NCBI RefSeq assembly: GCF_009914755.1
Contig: NC_060941.1
Length of the DNA stretch: 64,000 nucleotides
Origin: the human T2T-CHM13v2.0 reference genome, Homo sapiens
Direction: 5' to 3' (one strand)
The position numbers and the translations under genes were made by a program. Shown piece by piece: positions 59,801 to 62,503 of this stretch (position 1 is its first letter; every line of letters begins with the position of its first letter). Below the pieces are notes generated by a model that did no database searches, had not been told where the DNA came from, and was given only the letters and a program-made list of their open reading frames with translations.

Positions 59801-62503
59801 TGATTATAGCTAGCTTAAATCCTAATTCTTTTTTCCTCCTAAGTTAAAAAATAAATGTAAAAATGTAAAAATAAGATAAAAAATCTCCATCAGTGCAGAT
59901 GCATGATAATCACAGGGAGGCCAAAGATGAAGAGAAACCTCTAATGCACCTTTACCTACGCTCTGACTTTAAATTCTATGCATCTGCATTGACTTGGAGT
60001 TGTAAACTTCTGTTACTCTCATCATAGGTCCATGGCGGTCTGTGAGTTTGGGATGTTGGACTCAATTTTTTCACAGATATATATTTGTAGTTTTTGATAA
60101 CCCAAAGTTATAATCATCTGTAAACTTCACGACTAATCGTTGTTAACCTCATTTCTGTTGAATACTTATGGTTACTACGTGTTGTCAGGTACTGCTTATG
60201 GTATTGGTTTAAAGGACTTGGTATTTCAGATGCACCAAGACCAGCCTCATAGGGATGTTTAGAGAATGTATATAACAGCTTTAGGTTTCCTTGTCTGGAG
60301 TGGGTGTGTGTGTGTGTTTGTTAACAGAGTACATACAGATAGATTTTTTTTTTAAGTTTGGCAATTTGCTATAGAATACATTTATTTTAAATATAGAAAA
60401 CATGAGATCCATCATATAGGGTGGCAACTCAATTTATGTGTGGGATGCATAATTGAGAGATGTTATTTTGAGTCCCTTTTTTTGTGAGCTCTGCTGTGAA
60501 CTGCAAACTGTGTGCATGTGTATAAAAGGTTAAGAGCCCGGGTAGCTGAGTGGGGTGCCATGCTGTTAGCAGACGATGAGGGCAGTATTACTCACCAGGT
60601 GCATGCTGTCAGCTCTGTAGAAGATTCCATCTTCATGGAGTCATCTCATGGTCCACTTTTTCTTGAAGCCAGGTAACATTTCCAATGGGTTGGCCTCGTT
60701 GGAGTTTTTCCAGCTTGAAAAACCTAAGCATTTTCTTCTCTGACTTTTTTTTTAATAAAATGCTGCCTGTTGGAAAAACTAACTTGCAAGCTGGAATGAA
60801 CCTGTGATATCACTTTGCTTTGTAAGAAATAATTATGTGAGGAGTGATTTTTTTTTTTTAAATAGAAACTGGTGAGGGTGAGAATTGGAGTGTTGTGTCT
60901 TGCTTTGTTGTGTTAAGCATGGAGCACTCTGGCTTGTGTTGTAGACTTTTGTTTCTAGGGATGTACAGACTATTTTGTGATAACTAATCTGTTCTCTTTG
61001 ACTATTACTGAGGCAAAGTAGTTTTGTGCAGTTTGAATTCTTGGCTCTTAACTCTTTTGCATATGTCAGTGCCTTGGTCTTTTAATGATATCTGACTTTT
61101 GCTTCAAATCTGTTTAACTTAGTTATAAAATAACCTAAACTAGACAGTCTCTCTAAGCTCTTAATTTTGTAAGTTTTCTTTTCTTTCTTTTTTTTTTTTT
61201 TTGCGATAGAGTCTCACTCTGTCACCCAGGCTGGAGTGCAGTGGCACCGTGTCGGCTCACTGCAAACTCCGTCTTCTAGGTTCAAGCAATTCTCCTGCCT
61301 CAGCCTCCCAAGTAGCTGGGATTACAGGCACCCACCACCATGCCCGGCCACTTTTTATATTTTTAGTAGAGACGGGGTTTCACCATGTTGGCCAGGCCAG
61401 TCTCGAACTCCTGACCTCAGGTGATCCACCCGCCTCAGCCTCCGAAGTGCTGGGATTACAGGCATGAGCCACTGCACCCGGCCAATTTTTTAAGTTTTCT
61501 ACATCATCTCAATTGTGTTCACTTAGTAACTAAGACTTCAGTGACATTTAAATAAAATGTTCTGACCTTTTCTTTAGAGCTTTATCCTCTTCATGGTAAG
61601 CTGTCATACTTGAGACTCTTGAGGGTACTTACTGAGCATGCTCACAACTCAGTTTGTGGTACAGGCTGTCCCTGTTCTTGTCATGCATACTATGGCTTAT
61701 TTTATGTCATTGCCTTTCAATCCATCACATTACGTTATGTCTGTTAGTTGGTATCATTATCACTGCCTGTCTAACACCAGGGATTGGTTTTTTTCTCTTT
61801 AATTAGCAGTAACCAAATTAATGCAAACTGATAAATCTTCCCCTCCCCCTTCGGGTTTTTTGGGGGGTTTTTTGTAAATTTTTATGAGGCTCAGTGTTTC
61901 CAAAGTTGACTTTAATCATTTCTCTTAGAAAAGTATTGTCACTTGTCACTTAACTGCTTACAAAATAGCTTTCAGTTCCTGGGGATAGGAGATTGCACAT
62001 TATTTAACCATGAATATGATCCTCAAAATTGTGGGAACACCGCCTTAATTTTCATTTTGAACAACCGTAACGGTATTATAAAATGCTAGATTGATTTGTC
62101 TAACTTCTTTATTTCCTGTGTGAAAAAAAGTTTACAAATTTAGATGTCTACTCCCACAAAGTAGCTAATTGTCTTTATTAGTATCTACATTGTGTCATTT
62201 TCTTAAAGTAATGATTAAGTAATTATATATATGGCTATATTGATCAATGTTTTTGATAAGCATTACTGTATGCAGTTAGCTTGACAAGTGTGCTAATACT
62301 TCCCTAAAAGTAGACTGCTAAATAACTGGTATAGGGTTTTCATACTAATCATGTTTTAAATAATAATTATATTTTCTGACTGCAGGCACGTGACACAAGC
62401 TGACCTCAAGAGCTCCACGTTTTGGCTTCGAGCAAGTTTTGGTGCTACTGTTTTTGCAGTTTTGGGCTTTGCTATGTACAAAGCATTATTGAAACAGCGA
62501 TGA
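8812..62503 (+). CDS. RHOT1: RHOT1/Miro1 spliced CDS, exon 2 to terminal exon (5'-partial; exon 1 upstream of window)
   Basis: 18 constitutive GT-AG exons join in frame (1820 nt) and translate [17 protein letters not shown]...[11 protein letters not shown], recognised as Miro1. Motifs: G1 RVGKTS, G4 NKSD, G5 CSAK, EF-hands [12 protein letters not shown] and [13 protein letters not shown]-GTPase GVKNCGKS, C-terminal TM. Confidence 0.99.
10996..11513. mobile_element. Tigger4/Zombi-type element with Alu (11222-11500, +) inserted near its end
   Basis: tacaagttgagcatcctttatccaaaatgcttgggaccagaagtgtttcagatttc...ctcaacctgt. Confidence 0.75.
11600..11681 (+). CDS. RHOT1: RHOT1 exon 3 (82 nt)
   Basis: tgaag|GTT CCT CCC...TAC TCA G|gtaatg; [27 protein letters not shown]. 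Confidence 0.97.
11905..12190. mobile_element. MER33-like hAT element
   Basis: gtggctgttgaacacttgaaatgtgact...gtggcttgcattatctgtatgttggacagcactg. Confidence 0.7.
13088..13131 (+). CDS. RHOT1: RHOT1 exon 4 (44 nt)
   Basis: tttgtag|AA GCA GAA...TCT CAG|gtgagc; [15 protein letters not shown]. Confidence 0.96.
13731..13784 (+). CDS. RHOT1: RHOT1 exon 5 (54 nt)
   Basis: cttctag|GCT AAT...GAT AAG|gtaggt; [18 protein letters not shown]. Confidence 0.97.
13930..13982 (+). CDS. RHOT1: RHOT1 exon 6 (53 nt)
   Basis: ttttag|GTA ACA...AGC AG|gtattt; [18 protein letters not shown]. Confidence 0.96.
14942..15141. mobile_element. MER3-like hAT element
   Basis: ctgctgtccag...agccacgtttcaagtgctcatagccacatgtg...tattggacag. 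Confidence 0.75.
15243..15538 (+). mobile_element. AluY at 5' end of composite insertion
   Basis: Y-diagnostic gagatcgagaccatcctggctaacac, gaatggcatgaacc, gagcttgcag; A15 tail; no TSD of its own. Confidence 0.9.
15970..18434 (+). mobile_element. SVA retrotransposon (SVA_A-like), near full length, sense to RHOT1 in intron 6
   Basis: Eroded C-rich head; Alu-like region ~15990-16360; GC-rich VNTR ~16360-17905; SINE-R ~17905-18405; AATAAA 18397; A-tail; 14-bp TSD GAAATAATAAATGC at 15956-15969 and 18435-18448. Confidence 0.95.
16360..17905 (+). repeat. SVA VNTR (~37-40 bp units)
   Basis: Tandem ...gtctgggaagtgaggagcgcctctgcccggccgcccc... units. Confidence 0.95.
18900..20370 (+). mobile_element. 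L2 fragment(s), with Alu ~19990-20275
   Basis: ttcaatgacttcccattttacactaacaataaaacc; gggcctttgcacatgctgttcctt; ctcaaatgtcacc; terminal ataggtgctcaatagataacatgttgagt. Confidence 0.65.
20526..20634 (+). CDS. RHOT1: RHOT1 exon 7 (109 nt)
   Basis: tttag|G CTG CCT...GTG GAG|gtatgc; [36 protein letters not shown]. Confidence 0.97.
20940..21041 (+). CDS. RHOT1: RHOT1 exon 8 (102 nt)
   Basis: ttttcag|TGT TCA GCG...AAG GAG|gtaaca; [34 protein letters not shown]. Confidence 0.97.
21845..24760 (-). mobile_element. L1MB 3' fragment interrupted by about 7 antisense Alus
   Basis: aaattcatccttttaaagt..tttagtgtattcacaaagttatgcaatcatcacc; ttttacattcccaccagcagtgtatgaaggttcc; gatttgcatttccctgatggctaatgatg. 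Confidence 0.8.
25285..26616 (+). mobile_element. hAT-Charlie (MER58/Cheshire-like) element with transposase remnant; Alu inserted ~25345-25637
   Basis: MER58-type ends (taaagtttgattgtaacatagccatg..; ggccccaaagcctaaaatatttgctatgtggtcctttacagaaaa); ORF 26216-26434 has [25 protein letters not shown], resembling the hAT dimerization domain. Confidence 0.7.
29970..30068 (+). CDS. RHOT1: RHOT1 exon 9 (99 nt, EF-hand 1)
   Basis: ttatag|ATG AAA CCA...TTT CAG|gtaatg; [33 protein letters not shown]. Confidence 0.97.
30905..31013 (+). CDS. RHOT1: RHOT1 exon 10 (109 nt)
   Basis: ttgctag|AGG ATT TGT...AAA G|gtgggt; [36 protein letters not shown]. Confidence 0.96.
31756..31876 (+). CDS. RHOT1: RHOT1 exon 11 (121 nt)
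   Basis: tttcag|GT TTT CTC...CCC CT|gtatgt; [40 protein letters not shown]. Confidence 0.97.
32156..32346 (-). mobile_element. MER20
   Basis: caggatttctcaacctcagcactattggcattttgg...ccagttgtgacaaccaaaa...gttgagaaccactg. Confidence 0.8.
36716..36800 (+). CDS. RHOT1: RHOT1 exon 12 (85 nt)
   Basis: tcaacag|G CTG AAA...GAT TTG|gtaagc; [28 protein letters not shown]. Confidence 0.97.
37174..37319 (+). CDS. RHOT1: RHOT1 exon 13 (146 nt, EF-hand 2)
   Basis: cttcag|GAT AGA GAC...TGG AC|gtgagt; [48 protein letters not shown]. Confidence 0.97.
37827..39671 (+). repeat. ~230-bp direct repeat pair (37827-38056, 39441-39671) flanking exon 14
   Basis: cagccatgaggttctttcactcagcacattgtgg...ggtatagcctaaggaggttgt occurs twice with about 6 differences. 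Confidence 0.95.
38725..38825 (+). CDS. RHOT1: RHOT1 exon 14 (101 nt)
   Basis: ttcatag|G CTC ACG...ACA G|gtaagt; [33 protein letters not shown]. Confidence 0.97.
40539..40669 (+). CDS. RHOT1: RHOT1 exon 15 (131 nt, start of C-GTPase)
   Basis: tttttag|TG ACA AGA...TTA ATG|gtgaga; [44 protein letters not shown]. Confidence 0.97.
41659..41742 (+). CDS. RHOT1: RHOT1 exon 16 (84 nt)
   Basis: ttttcag|AGG CAG...TTG TTG|gtaaga; [28 protein letters not shown]. Confidence 0.96.
42808..43139 (-). mobile_element. 5'-truncated L1PA (L1PA8-like) 3' end
   Basis: Poly-T then aaattttactttaagttctgggatacatgtgcagg...gcatgcattaggtatttgtcctaatgctctccct; TSD acttctattttttt at 42801 and 43141. Confidence 0.85.
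44680..44799 (+). CDS. RHOT1: RHOT1 exon 17 (120 nt)
   Basis: ttttacaag|TTG CAT...TTT AAG|gtttgt; [40 protein letters not shown]. Confidence 0.96.
45877..46079 (+). CDS. RHOT1: RHOT1 exon 18 (203 nt)
   Basis: ccatag|CAA CAC TTT ATG...TAT CC|gtaagt; [20 protein letters not shown]...KLTTMAMYP. Confidence 0.97.
46249..46405 (+). terminator. Candidate intronic polyadenylation signals in intron 18
   Basis: AATAAA 46249, 46328, 46374 and ATTAAA 46353, followed by GU-rich tgggtttggcatcatgttgtttt. Confidence 0.4.
47120..47215 (+). CDS. RHOT1: RHOT1 cassette exon 19 (96 nt, phase 2-2)
   Basis: tctacag|A GAG GAT CAT...GCT TT|gtaagt; [31 protein letters not shown]; frame-preserving, matches recalled long Miro1 isoforms. 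Confidence 0.92.
47824..48366 (+). mobile_element. AmnSINE1 (5S-rRNA-headed ancient amniote SINE), near full length
   Basis: 5S-like head ccatgccaccatgtgct..tctcatcagatctcataagctaagc; then caggtgttacaggaagtg..gattcatcaggtggcgctctt..ctgaacca, gaccac..gtcatt, cctccctaaattt..tttcaattggat, tttataaagcacctt; order matches the recalled AmnSINE1 consensus. Confidence 0.75.
48886..49008 (+). CDS. RHOT1: RHOT1 cassette exon 20 (123 nt, phase 2-2, Cys-rich)
   Basis: ttttcgcag|C CAT GCC CGG...AAC AG|gttctt; [41 protein letters not shown]; both cassettes give 618+32+41=691 aa. Confidence 0.9.
50295..51460 (-). mobile_element. L3/CR1 LINE 3' fragment
   Basis: gagttggaagagattctag..catctggcctaacc; ccttcaggcatttgaagacggccatcatgtctccccta..cttctccagg; tttgcagatttg..tcaagttactgataaaaaatgatgttgaa (decayed RT region). 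Confidence 0.75.
60521..60672 (+). other. Candidate intragenic promoter and alternative first exon
   Basis: TATAAAAG 60521; GCCATG with ATG at 60560; 37 open codons; CAG|GTAACA donor after 60672 in phase with the terminal exon. Confidence 0.4.
62386..62503 (+). CDS. RHOT1: RHOT1 terminal exon, coding part (mitochondrial outer-membrane tail anchor)
   Basis: Branch-point-like TACTAAT 62343-62349; ctgcag|G CAC GTG...CGA TGA; [38 protein letters not shown]. Confidence 0.97.

What the first reader, a model, noticed from the sequence alone, without database searches (positions are those of the whole stretch)
60521..62503. Hidden promoter and first exon in the last intron could encode a 76-aa tail-anchored 'micro-Miro' peptide
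Seen: a consensus TATA box (TATAAAAG, 60521) lies 39 nt before GCCATG (ATG 60560). The frame is open for 37 codons plus 2 nt to a CAG|GTAACA donor after 60672. That donor is phase 2, the phase the terminal exon acceptor (62386) needs. Splicing gives [38 protein letters not shown]+[38 protein letters not shown] (76 aa); a second in-frame ATG at 60635 gives 51 aa. An in-frame TGA at 60497 and the lack of a pyrimidine-tract acceptor argue for a first exon rather than a cassette exon. The stretch ~59730-61170 is Alu-free. Established: the terminal exon carries Miro1's outer-mitochondrial-membrane anchor. Inference: an acidic, GTPase-less anchor peptide could be a tissue-specific outer-membrane micropeptide or a decoy. 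Caveats: the predicted 5' UTR is only ~10 nt, and chance coincidence is not excluded.
Basis: partly seen in the sequence, partly recalled or inferred. Interest (0 to 1): 0.85.

Follow-up and report, generated by a model that had tools for sequence, protein, structure and literature searches.

The report
Hidden conserved Miro1 cassette exon
The open frame in the last RHOT1 intron looks like an ancient 48-codon coding exon shared with lizard, frog and fish but missing from the human RefSeq annotation, and it is most likely an internal insert just before Miro1's membrane anchor rather than the start of a mini-protein.

Summary
Every letter-level observation holds: TATAAAAG at 60521, ATG at 60560, 37 open codons, CAG|GTAACA after 60672, and the right phase for 62386. 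ORF, donor and phase alone are not beyond chance: 37 comparable configurations occur in the window, and a second one lies upstream of the terminal exon.

Homology settles it. A 76-aa skink model (P0001) matches the human intronic ORF Met-to-Met, 26/36 identical, E=1e-16. Frog (P0006) and salmonid (P0005) models carry the same segment internally and in frame, between the exon-20-type insert and the tail exon.

The frog match starts 10 codons upstream of the human ATG. That point coincides with an AG|G at 60527-28|60529, inside the supposed TATA box. The unit 60529-60672 is 144 nt, phase 2 in and out. Met is Tyr in frog and fish. The human lineage shows no rate acceleration.

Best reading: an unannotated ancient cassette exon adding an acidic 48-residue insert before Miro1's transmembrane anchor. 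Human splicing is unproven: RefSeq lacks the exon and the acceptor is weak. The promoter and micro-Miro reading is not supported but not excluded (about 5%).

The parts
60529..60672 (+). Proposed cassette exon of RHOT1: 144 nt, 48 codons counting the split ones, phase 2 in and phase 2 out. It encodes an acidic 47-residue internal segment plus a split Arg.
   Evidence: The boundaries come from homology. Frog P0006 and salmonid P0005 switch from the exon-20-type insert to this segment at the column of human codon 60530, and switch to the tail exon after 60672. The frame is open. GC is 0.507, reached by only 0.57% of unmasked intronic 144-nt windows.
60521..60528 (+). Its last two bases (60527-28) are the acceptor AG of the cassette.
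   Evidence: Acceptor PWM score -6.09, better than only 1 of 25 RHOT1 acceptors. Pyrimidine content at -20..-3 is 0.44, below all 23 RHOT1 acceptors.
60489..60526 (+). A 38-nt AG-free zone upstream of the acceptor AG.
   Evidence: RHOT1 acceptors have a median of 33 nt (range 18-95). Only 6.9% of all AG-to-AG gaps in the window are 38 nt or more.
60473..60483 (+). An 11-nt pyrimidine run followed by GTGAG. It is a possible distal polypyrimidine tract, or the tract of a weak alternative acceptor (exon start 60489).
   Evidence: The acceptor at 60489 scores -0.07. A 184-nt exon from there would be out of frame and would meet TAA at 60523 (my reading).
60497..60499 (+). In-frame TGA, lying upstream of the cassette acceptor and therefore intronic.
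60560..60562 (+). ATG, an internal Met codon of the cassette. It is shared with the skink and is Tyr in frog and salmonid.
60673..60678 (+). Donor GTAACA after CAG.
   Evidence: 6.98 bits, the 31st percentile of 495 real donors. The real RHOT1 donor after 21041 has the same intronic hexamer.
62386..62503 (+). Coding part of the terminal exon: juxtamembrane residues, transmembrane anchor, short basic tail and stop.
   Evidence: Described as a tail anchor in Okumoto 2018 (passages) and Castro 2018 (passages).
48886..49008 (+). Exon 20 (insertion 2), the exon that precedes the cassette in the frog and salmonid models.
60513..60518 (+). TGCATG 11-16 nt upstream of the acceptor AG. A second copy lies at 60600-60605 inside the exon. 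This is only a lead towards regulated splicing.
   Evidence: 20 copies on the + strand of the window (0.31 per kb), 2 of them within 90 nt here. That TGCATG is an RBFOX-type motif is recalled, not tested.

Best explanation
Window 60529-60672 is an ancient, alternatively used, in-frame cassette exon of RHOT1 (Miro1). It lies between exon 20 and the terminal exon.

When included after exon 18, 19 or 20, it would insert 48 residues directly N-terminal to the juxtamembrane and transmembrane segment. The insert has net charge -6 and a conserved Q-V-H...S-I-[FY]-M core. The reading frame and the junction residues stay unchanged.

By analogy with the neighbouring inserts from exons 19 and 20, it most likely alters which membrane Miro1 is delivered to, or which partner binds next to the anchor.

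Shown here:
- the segment is homologous to coding sequence in a skink, a frog and a salmonid;
- the boundaries, phase and open frame are conserved;
- the human lineage shows no rate acceleration.

Inferred, not shown:
- that human cells still splice the exon, probably rarely or in few tissues;
- what the insert does.
For: 1. A search with the tail exon alone returned 4 short proteins. One of them, P0001 (skink, 76 aa), matches the human intronic ORF independently of the query: 26/36 identical, no gaps, E=1e-16.
2. The profile search returned salmonid P0005 (1.0e-29) and frog P0006 (7.4e-27). The 3 hits whose best alignment covers only about half of the query (50-51%, the tail) scored 5.7e-15 to 6.8e-13.
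3. Human translation against frog: 22/46 identical, ungapped, E=5e-12, starting 10 codons upstream of the ATG. Against salmonid: 25/49, E=7e-15.
4. In both models the segment sits in frame between an exon-20-type insert and the tail. Human and frog segments have equal length.
5. The human unit is bounded by AG|G and AG|GT and is 144 nt long. The junction codons after exons 18, 19 and 20 give P, L and R, the same as with the terminal exon.
6. Relative rate: human-specific against skink-specific changes are 2 against 2 (frog outgroup) and 3 against 3 (fish outgroup) over 37 columns.
7. Only 8.2% of 144-nt frames in the window are stop-free.
8. GC is 0.507 against an intronic mean of 0.343, in the top 0.57%. 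GC by codon position is 0.64, 0.43 and 0.45.
9. The donor is ordinary and the AG-free zone is typical of real acceptors.
10. Frog P0007 is the skipping form with no insert. Its contig length (54,943 bases) equals that of P0006, which suggests alternative use there.
Against: - None of the 22 RefSeq RHOT1 transcripts (21 mRNA, 1 non-coding) has an exon between 58957 and 62385.
- The acceptor is weak. Its PWM score is -6.09, better than only 1 of 25 RHOT1 acceptors and below all 493 training acceptors to the nearest percent. Its pyrimidine content is lower than at all 23 RHOT1 acceptors.
- Okumoto 2018 amplified across this variable region in HeLa cells, HEK cells and mouse tissues. In the passages I read, it reports four variants only. 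Covill-Cooke 2020 uses the same four.
- P0001, P0005 and P0006 are automated gene models. I do not know whether RNA evidence supports them.
- I had no access to other vertebrates' DNA, so synonymous against non-synonymous change could not be measured.
Confidence: 0.74

Rival explanations
1. Relic exon. The segment was a working cassette exon for most of vertebrate history but is no longer spliced in humans, or in primates, and is only beginning to decay.
For: It is absent from all 22 RefSeq transcripts. The acceptor is very weak and the polypyrimidine tract poor. It is not among the four variants found by RT-PCR in human cell lines (passages).
Against: The frame is open over 48 codons, there is no indel relative to frog, and both the AG and the GT are intact. 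Human-specific changes are no more numerous than skink-specific ones. My rough estimate, using a recalled neutral rate of about 2e-9 per site per year, is that loss of constraint more than about 100 million years ago would have left stops, indels and many more changes. A loss within the last few tens of millions of years cannot be excluded.
Confidence: 0.17
2. A TATA-driven internal promoter starts transcription near 60550. The ATG at 60560 opens a first exon spliced from 60672 to 62386, giving a 76-aa tail-anchored 'micro-Miro' with no GTPase domains. This could coexist with cassette use.
For: An exact TATAAAAG lies 39 nt before the ATG. The ATG context has G at -3. The skink model P0001 is a 76-aa protein of this exact layout, and its Met is shared with human. 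The C-terminal region of Miro1 alone is enough to reach mitochondria when fused to EGFP (Okumoto 2018 passages), so such a product would probably be membrane-anchored. Restricted to phase 2 and the region upstream of the terminal exon, I estimate the chance of the TATA coincidence at about 0.04-0.09 (my arithmetic).
Against: Homology continues 10 codons upstream of the ATG to an AG|G in cassette phase. Met is Tyr in frog and salmonid, where the segment is internal. TATAAAAG occurs 11 times and TATAWAWR 88 times in the window. There is no CpG island. A transcription start about 30 nt after the TATA would leave a leader of only about 6-11 nt, and out-of-frame ATGs follow at 60576 and 60603 (the start-site spacing is recalled knowledge). 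No named protein of 31-100 aa matches the human peptide closely. A gene predictor that misses a weak acceptor would start at the first ATG, which explains P0001 without any promoter.
Confidence: 0.05
3. Poison exon. The segment is used from the upstream acceptor at 60489, behind the 11-nt pyrimidine run. That gives a 184-nt out-of-frame exon that stops at 60523 and sends the transcript to decay, or yields an anchor-less protein.
For: The pyrimidine run at 60473-60483 and the AG at 60487-88. This acceptor scores higher (-0.07) than the homologous one (-6.09). RHOT1 already has annotated anchor-less alternative ends at 50488 and at 58836/58841.
Against: The G at -3 (GAG) is the least favoured acceptor context, and the score beats only 5 of 25 RHOT1 acceptors. 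This reading does not explain the protein-level conservation of the 48-codon frame.
Confidence: 0.03
4. Chance. A random intronic ORF that happens to end at a GT in the right phase.
For: 37 comparable configurations occur in the window. Another lies at 51773-51921, in phase 2 and with a stronger donor (10.55 bits).
Against: Pairwise E-values of 1e-16, 5e-12 and 7e-15 to three distant vertebrates, with matching boundaries.
Confidence: 0.01

Closest known systems
Miro1 insertion 2 (exon 20, 41 aa; window 48886-49008) and insertion 1 (exon 19, 32 aa; window 47120-47215), which define Miro1 variants 2-4 (Okumoto et al. 2018, PMC5800816, passages read)
   Same: [quoted passage not shown] Like insertion 2, this one is found outside mammals: Okumoto reports insertion 2 in chicken and frog, and the new segment follows it in the frog and salmonid models.
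   Different: The sequence is unrelated. It is acidic (net -6, against +1 and +4). It lies 11.5 kb further downstream. It is absent from human RefSeq and from the four described variants. Its acceptor is much weaker. Binding to Pex19p or any effect on targeting is untested.
Automated gene models P0005 (Hucho hucho, UniRef A0A4W5NRP6, 117 aa) and P0006 (Staurois parvus, 109 aa, partial)
   Same: Their segment is orthologous by sequence and by position between the exon-20-type insert and the tail exon. The frog segment has the same length as the human one.
   Different: Identity to human over the segment is 19-23 of 47 columns. The salmonid segment is 4 residues shorter. Both have Tyr where human has Met.
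P0001, 'hypothetical protein lerEdw1_003740' of the skink Lerista edwardsae, 76 aa
   Different: It is a model from another species whose supporting evidence I do not know. It may be a truncated prediction of the cassette rather than a real short protein.
Tail-anchored micropeptides in general (recalled as a class; only a search listing was seen, for example PMC8396278)
   Same: The hypothetical 76-aa product would have a single C-terminal transmembrane helix.
   Different: Nothing here shows that such a product is made.

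Membership tests
In-frame alternative cassette exon of the Miro1 juxtamembrane variable region | Bounded by an AG acceptor and a GT donor | tested here: met
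   AG at 60527-28 and GT at 60673-74.
In-frame alternative cassette exon of the Miro1 juxtamembrane variable region | Length a multiple of 3, with a phase compatible with exons 18, 19 and 20 and with the terminal exon | tested here: met
   144 nt. The junction codons give P, L and R, as with the terminal exon, and the exit codon AG+G gives R.
In-frame alternative cassette exon of the Miro1 juxtamembrane variable region | The orthologous segment is included internally in coding models of other species | tested here: met
   Frog P0006 and salmonid P0005. This is annotation-level evidence only.
In-frame alternative cassette exon of the Miro1 juxtamembrane variable region | Splice-site strength within the range of the gene's real sites | tested here: inconclusive
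   The donor is at the 31st percentile of real donors. The acceptor beats only 1 of 25 RHOT1 acceptors and has a poor pyrimidine tract, but its AG-free zone is typical. The PWM was trained on GC-rich chr17 regions and undervalues T-rich RHOT1 acceptors.
In-frame alternative cassette exon of the Miro1 juxtamembrane variable region | Present in a human transcript annotation | tested here: not met
   0 of 22 RefSeq transcripts. GENCODE/Ensembl could not be consulted.
In-frame alternative cassette exon of the Miro1 juxtamembrane variable region | Human junction reads or cDNA | not testable with these tools
   Sequencing reads are off for this job.
TATA-box promoter with an alternative first exon | TATA consensus at a suitable distance from a transcription start | tested here: inconclusive
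   The motif is present, but there are 11 copies in the window and its last two bases are the acceptor AG. The start site is unknown.
TATA-box promoter with an alternative first exon | Coding homology begins at the start codon, not upstream of it | tested here: not met
   The frog alignment begins 10 codons upstream of the ATG, at the AG|G.
TATA-box promoter with an alternative first exon | Start codon conserved in the species that keep the segment | tested here: not met
   Met in human and skink, Tyr in frog and salmonid.
TATA-box promoter with an alternative first exon | Transcription start signal (CAGE, H3K4me3) | not testable with these tools
RefSeq lists no functional element here.
Tail-anchored protein (the hypothetical 76-aa product) | A single transmembrane segment at the extreme C-terminus that is sufficient for targeting | tested here: met
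   The tail exon translation. The EGFP-fused C-terminal region of variant 1 goes to mitochondria (Okumoto 2018 passages).
Tail-anchored protein (the hypothetical 76-aa product) | Evidence that the short product exists in human | tested here: not met
   No named protein of 31-100 aa shares three 5-residue words with the human peptide. 12 unnamed candidates were not shown.

The most novel reading that the evidence does not exclude
In amniotes the ancient cassette acquired a Met codon (Tyr in frog and fish), and in some tissue it is also used as a first exon from an internal TATA-type promoter. This would make a 76-aa acidic, tail-anchored 'micro-Miro' with no GTPase or EF-hand domains, as the skink model P0001 is laid out. 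Such a product could occupy Miro insertion or partner sites on the outer mitochondrial or peroxisomal membrane.
Probability: 0.05. Interest if true: 0.85.

Novelty: new member of a known kind. Interest (0 to 1): 0.6.

Why it matters
Miro1 (RHOT1) links mitochondria and peroxisomes to motor proteins. Its short alternative inserts next to the membrane anchor are already known to shift it between organelles (Okumoto 2018; Covill-Cooke 2020; passages read).

A third insert at the same spot has several notable properties:
- it is acidic rather than basic;
- it is conserved from teleosts to human;
- it is absent from the human RefSeq annotation and from the four-variant scheme used in the field.

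It would therefore add a new isoform family, 48 residues longer than each known variant. It also gives a direct experiment: does inclusion change targeting, Pex19p dependence or partner binding, and in which tissue is the exon used?

The case is also a caution for annotation and variant interpretation. Variants in 60527-60678 would currently be scored as deep-intronic.

Tried and rejected
- Chance model. I built donor and acceptor PWMs from 495 GT donors and 493 acceptors in 20 chr17 stretches and enumerated ATG-ORF-donor configurations on both strands. ORF, donor, phase and TATA alone would have left the finding as a plausible coincidence. The homology results overrode this.
- Repeat or pseudogene origin: rejected. 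The region is single copy by DNA search and by protein search, which also gave no RHOT2 counterpart. It overlaps no masked repeat.
- Structured RNA: Rfam at E<=1 on 59500-62600 gave only Alu-derived SRP and mir hits at 61201-61484, plus weak bacterial sRNA hits. Nothing fell at 60400-60800.
- Known domain: Pfam found 0 families for 4 proteins.
- First protein search. The 57-aa translation of 60500-60670 found nothing. That was a false blank for distant kin, because the tool needs three exact 5-residue words. The skink protein surfaced only through the tail query.
- Cassette with the upstream acceptor at 60489: kept only as a minor rival.
- Other in-frame acceptors scored: 60535 (-12.75), 60586 (-9.5) and 60613 (0.88, giving a 60-nt exon). 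None matches the homology boundary.
- FFAT-like or LIR-like motif readings of the conserved core: considered from memory and dropped. The skink has Gly at a position such a motif would need, and no test was available.
- Literature.
  - RHOT1 with 'alternative promoter' (7 papers), 'microprotein' (2), 'alternative exon' (8), 'cryptic exon' (2), 'Rbfox' (21) and 'novel exon' (1);
  - two Miro1 searches on tail anchor and splice variants (135 and 175 papers at the 3-of-4-term level);
  - Lerista genome (1 paper);
  - the 13-residue core string (0 papers).
  Judged from listings only, none concerns this exon. I read passages of PMC11955442, PMC5888202, PMC5800816 and PMC7001505. Okumoto's Fig. S1 and isoform or smORF tables in other papers' supplements could bear on whether the exon has been seen before.
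- The other phase-2 configuration, 51773-51921 (49 codons, donor 10.55 bits), is single copy. No protein search was left to test it.

Full report
**1. The observation**

- TATAAAAG at 60521-60528.
- GCCATG with ATG at 60560.
- 37 open codons plus AG up to 60672, then GTAACA.
- An in-frame TGA at 60497.
- A second in-frame ATG at 60635.
- A terminal exon beginning with G at 62386, so the split codon AG+G reads Arg and the tail frame is the annotated one.

Unspliced, the frame ends at once (AGG TAA; ORF 60512..60676). The stretch 59734-61165 has no masked repeat of 100 nt or more. The region 60300-60900 is single copy in the genome. None of the 21 RefSeq mRNAs and 1 non-coding transcript of RHOT1 has an exon between 58957 and 62385 or starts there. 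The only functional element in the window is an enhancer at 17940-18464.

**2. Is it more than chance on its own? No.**

I trained position weight matrices on 495 GT donors (7 GC donors of 502 dropped) and 493 acceptors. These came from curated transcripts in 20 gene-dense 10-kb stretches of chr17.

- The donor after 60672 scores 6.98 bits, the 31st percentile of real donors. The genuine RHOT1 donor after 21041 has the same intronic hexamer.
- 126 of 3509 unannotated GTs on the + strand score at least as high, 7 of them in the last intron.
- Configurations of 'ATG, 37 or more open codons, donor at least this good' number 22 in intronic + strand sequence (3, 10 and 9 by phase) and 15 on the gene-free - strand.
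- Between 46080 and 62385, in phase 2, there are two such configurations: the candidate, and 51773-51921 with a stronger donor.
- TATAAAAG occurs 11 times in the window (4.9 expected) and TATAWAWR 88 times.
- 1 of the 37 configurations has a TATA 25-100 nt upstream. My arithmetic expects about 1.9.
- Restricted to the right place and phase, I estimate the coincidence at roughly 0.04-0.09. That is suggestive but post hoc.
- There is no CpG island (observed/expected 0.2, GC 0.40).

**3. What changed the picture**

A word search with the 57-aa translation of 60500-60670 found no named protein (12 unnamed candidates were withheld).

A second search used only the tail exon plus 9 open intronic codons. 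It returned 4 short proteins. One of them, P0001, is a 76-aa 'hypothetical protein' of the skink Lerista edwardsae. Its N-terminal part had not been in the query. It aligns Met-to-Met and without gaps to the human intronic ORF: 26/36 identical, E=1e-16 for the single comparison. Its tail is identical to the human one.

One search missed P0001 because the tool needs three exact 5-residue words. A blank from that tool is therefore weak evidence.

**4. It is an internal exon, not a first exon**

The third and last search used the human-skink alignment. It added salmonid P0005 (Hucho hucho, 117 aa, E=1.0e-29) and frog P0006 (Staurois parvus, 109 aa, partial, E=7.4e-27). The three hits whose best alignment covers only about half of the query (50-51%, the tail) scored 5.7e-15 to 6.8e-13.

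- In both new proteins the homologous segment is internal and in frame. It is preceded by a segment homologous to human exon 20 and followed by the tail.
- The human translation matches the frog at 22/46, ungapped, E=5e-12, starting 10 codons upstream of the human ATG. It matches the salmonid at 25/49, E=7e-15.
- In the multiple alignment, the first human residue aligned after the frog and fish exon-20 end is the codon at 60530.
- In the human DNA, that point is preceded by AG (60527-28) and G (60529).
- The unit 60529-60672 is 144 nt.
- Joined after exon 18, 19 or 20, it gives the junction residues P, L and R, the same as the terminal exon gives. It exits with AG+G = R.
- The 'TATA box' thus ends in the acceptor AG, and the TGA at 60497 lies in the intron.
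- The Met is Tyr in frog and salmonid.
- Frog P0007 is the form with no insert. Its contig length equals that of P0006, which suggests alternative use there.

**5. Is the human copy alive?**

In favour:
- The frame is open over 48 codons, whereas only 8.2% of 144-nt frames in the window are open.
- There is no indel relative to frog.
- AG and GT are intact.
- GC is 0.507 against 0.343 +/- 0.062 for unmasked intronic windows, reached by only 0.57% of them.
- GC by codon position is 0.64, 0.43 and 0.45.
- The AG-free zone of 38 nt is like real RHOT1 acceptors (median 33), while only 6.9% of all AG-to-AG gaps are that long.
- The relative-rate count is balanced: human-specific against skink-specific changes are 2 against 2 (frog outgroup) and 3 against 3 (fish outgroup). 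Human-fish identity is 20/37 and skink-fish is 20/37. Human-frog is 17/37 and skink-frog is 17/37.

With a recalled mammalian neutral rate, I estimate that loss of constraint more than about 100 million years ago is very unlikely. A recent loss is not excluded.

Against:
- The exon is absent from RefSeq.
- The acceptor PWM score is -6.09, better than only 1 of 25 RHOT1 acceptors.
- Pyrimidine content at -20..-3 is 0.44, below all 23 RHOT1 acceptors.
- The RT-PCR of Okumoto et al. across this region reports four variants in the passages I read. Covill-Cooke et al. use the same four.

Caveat: the acceptor PWM was trained on GC-rich regions, and several genuine RHOT1 acceptors also score below zero with it.

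**6. How it most likely works**

Shown: the segment is orthologous to coding sequence that sits directly N-terminal to the Miro1 juxtamembrane and anchor region.

Established by others (passages read):
- Insertions from exon 19 (32 aa) and exon 20 (41 aa) at this same position change the balance between mitochondrial and peroxisomal targeting. Insertion 1 provides a Pex19p site.
- The C-terminal region alone is enough to target a reporter to mitochondria (PMC5800816; PMC7001505; PMC5888202).

Inferred:
- Inclusion of 60529-60672 adds 48 residues with net charge -6, against +1 and +4 for the two known inserts.
- The insert has twelve columns invariant across the four species, clustered in a Q-V-H...S-I-x-M core.
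- It thereby modifies delivery or partner binding next to the membrane.
- The weak acceptor, two TGCATG copies (60513 and 60600, against a window rate of 0.31 per kb) and TG-rich runs (60304-60317 and 60509-60514) suggest regulated, tissue-restricted inclusion. Assigning these motifs to particular splicing factors is recalled knowledge and was not tested.

**7. Comparison and novelty**

The closest known things are Miro1 insertions 1 and 2. The position, phase and logic are the same. The sequence is unrelated and the charge is opposite.

- Pfam has no family for the segment (0 of 4 proteins).
- No other copy exists in the human genome, and RHOT2 was not hit.
- Rfam finds nothing at the site.
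- Ten literature searches gave no paper on this exon, judged from listings. A search for the 13-residue core string found 0 papers.
- I could not consult GENCODE/Ensembl or paper supplements, nor search for full-length isoforms. The exon may therefore be recorded somewhere I could not see.

I file it as a new member of a known kind.

**8. Verdict**

- The promoter, first-exon and micropeptide interpretation is not supported (about 0.05), although the skink model mirrors it.
- Best explanation: an ancient in-frame cassette exon, still coding-competent in human (0.74).
- Main rival: a recently silenced relic (0.17).

Noticed in passing
window 51773-51921 (+): This is the other phase-2 'ATG, 49 open codons, donor' configuration upstream of the terminal exon. 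Its donor (10.55 bits) is stronger than the candidate's. It is single copy in the genome. No protein search was left to ask whether it too is conserved.
   Followed up: partly
window 60513-60518 and 60600-60605; 60304-60317 and 60509-60514: Two TGCATG copies lie within 90 nt, against a window rate of 0.31 per kb. One is 11-16 nt upstream of the acceptor AG. TG-repeat runs lie upstream. These may be splicing-regulator sites, but the factor assignment is recalled and untested.
   Followed up: partly
window 60611-60672: An alternative in-frame acceptor (AG at 60611-12, PWM 0.88) scores better than the homologous one. It would give a 60-nt exon encoding only the C-terminal part of the segment.
   Followed up: no
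P0003, P0004, P0005 (teleosts) and P0006 (frog): Segments like exon 20 (insertion 2) are present in teleost models. Okumoto 2018 (passage) mentions chicken and frog for insertion 2, so that insert appears to go back at least to bony fish.
   Followed up: partly
P0002 (Tachysurus ichikawai, 76 aa): This is a second 76-aa model with the Miro tail, but its N-terminal half is unrelated and basic. It is probably an annotation artefact. It shows that short tail-only models arise easily in automated annotation.
   Followed up: no
window 61166-61503 (-): This is a masked repeat with Rfam matches to metazoan SRP RNA (71.7 and 58.4 bits) and to the mir-1268, mir-1285 and mir-3135 families. I take it for an Alu element; no family names were available.
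   Followed up: no
window, RHOT1 acceptors such as 11600, 40539 and 58819: Several annotated RHOT1 acceptors score far below zero with a PWM trained on GC-rich chr17 genes. T-rich, long-intron genes need their own splice-site model, so the weak score of the 60529 acceptor should be read with that in mind.
   Followed up: partly
whole window: TATAWAWR is 2.7 times more frequent than in dinucleotide shuffles (88 against 32.1). Many hits lie in overlapping TA-rich clusters such as 6341-6425. TATA-like motifs are therefore poor evidence for promoters in this AT-rich gene.
   Followed up: yes
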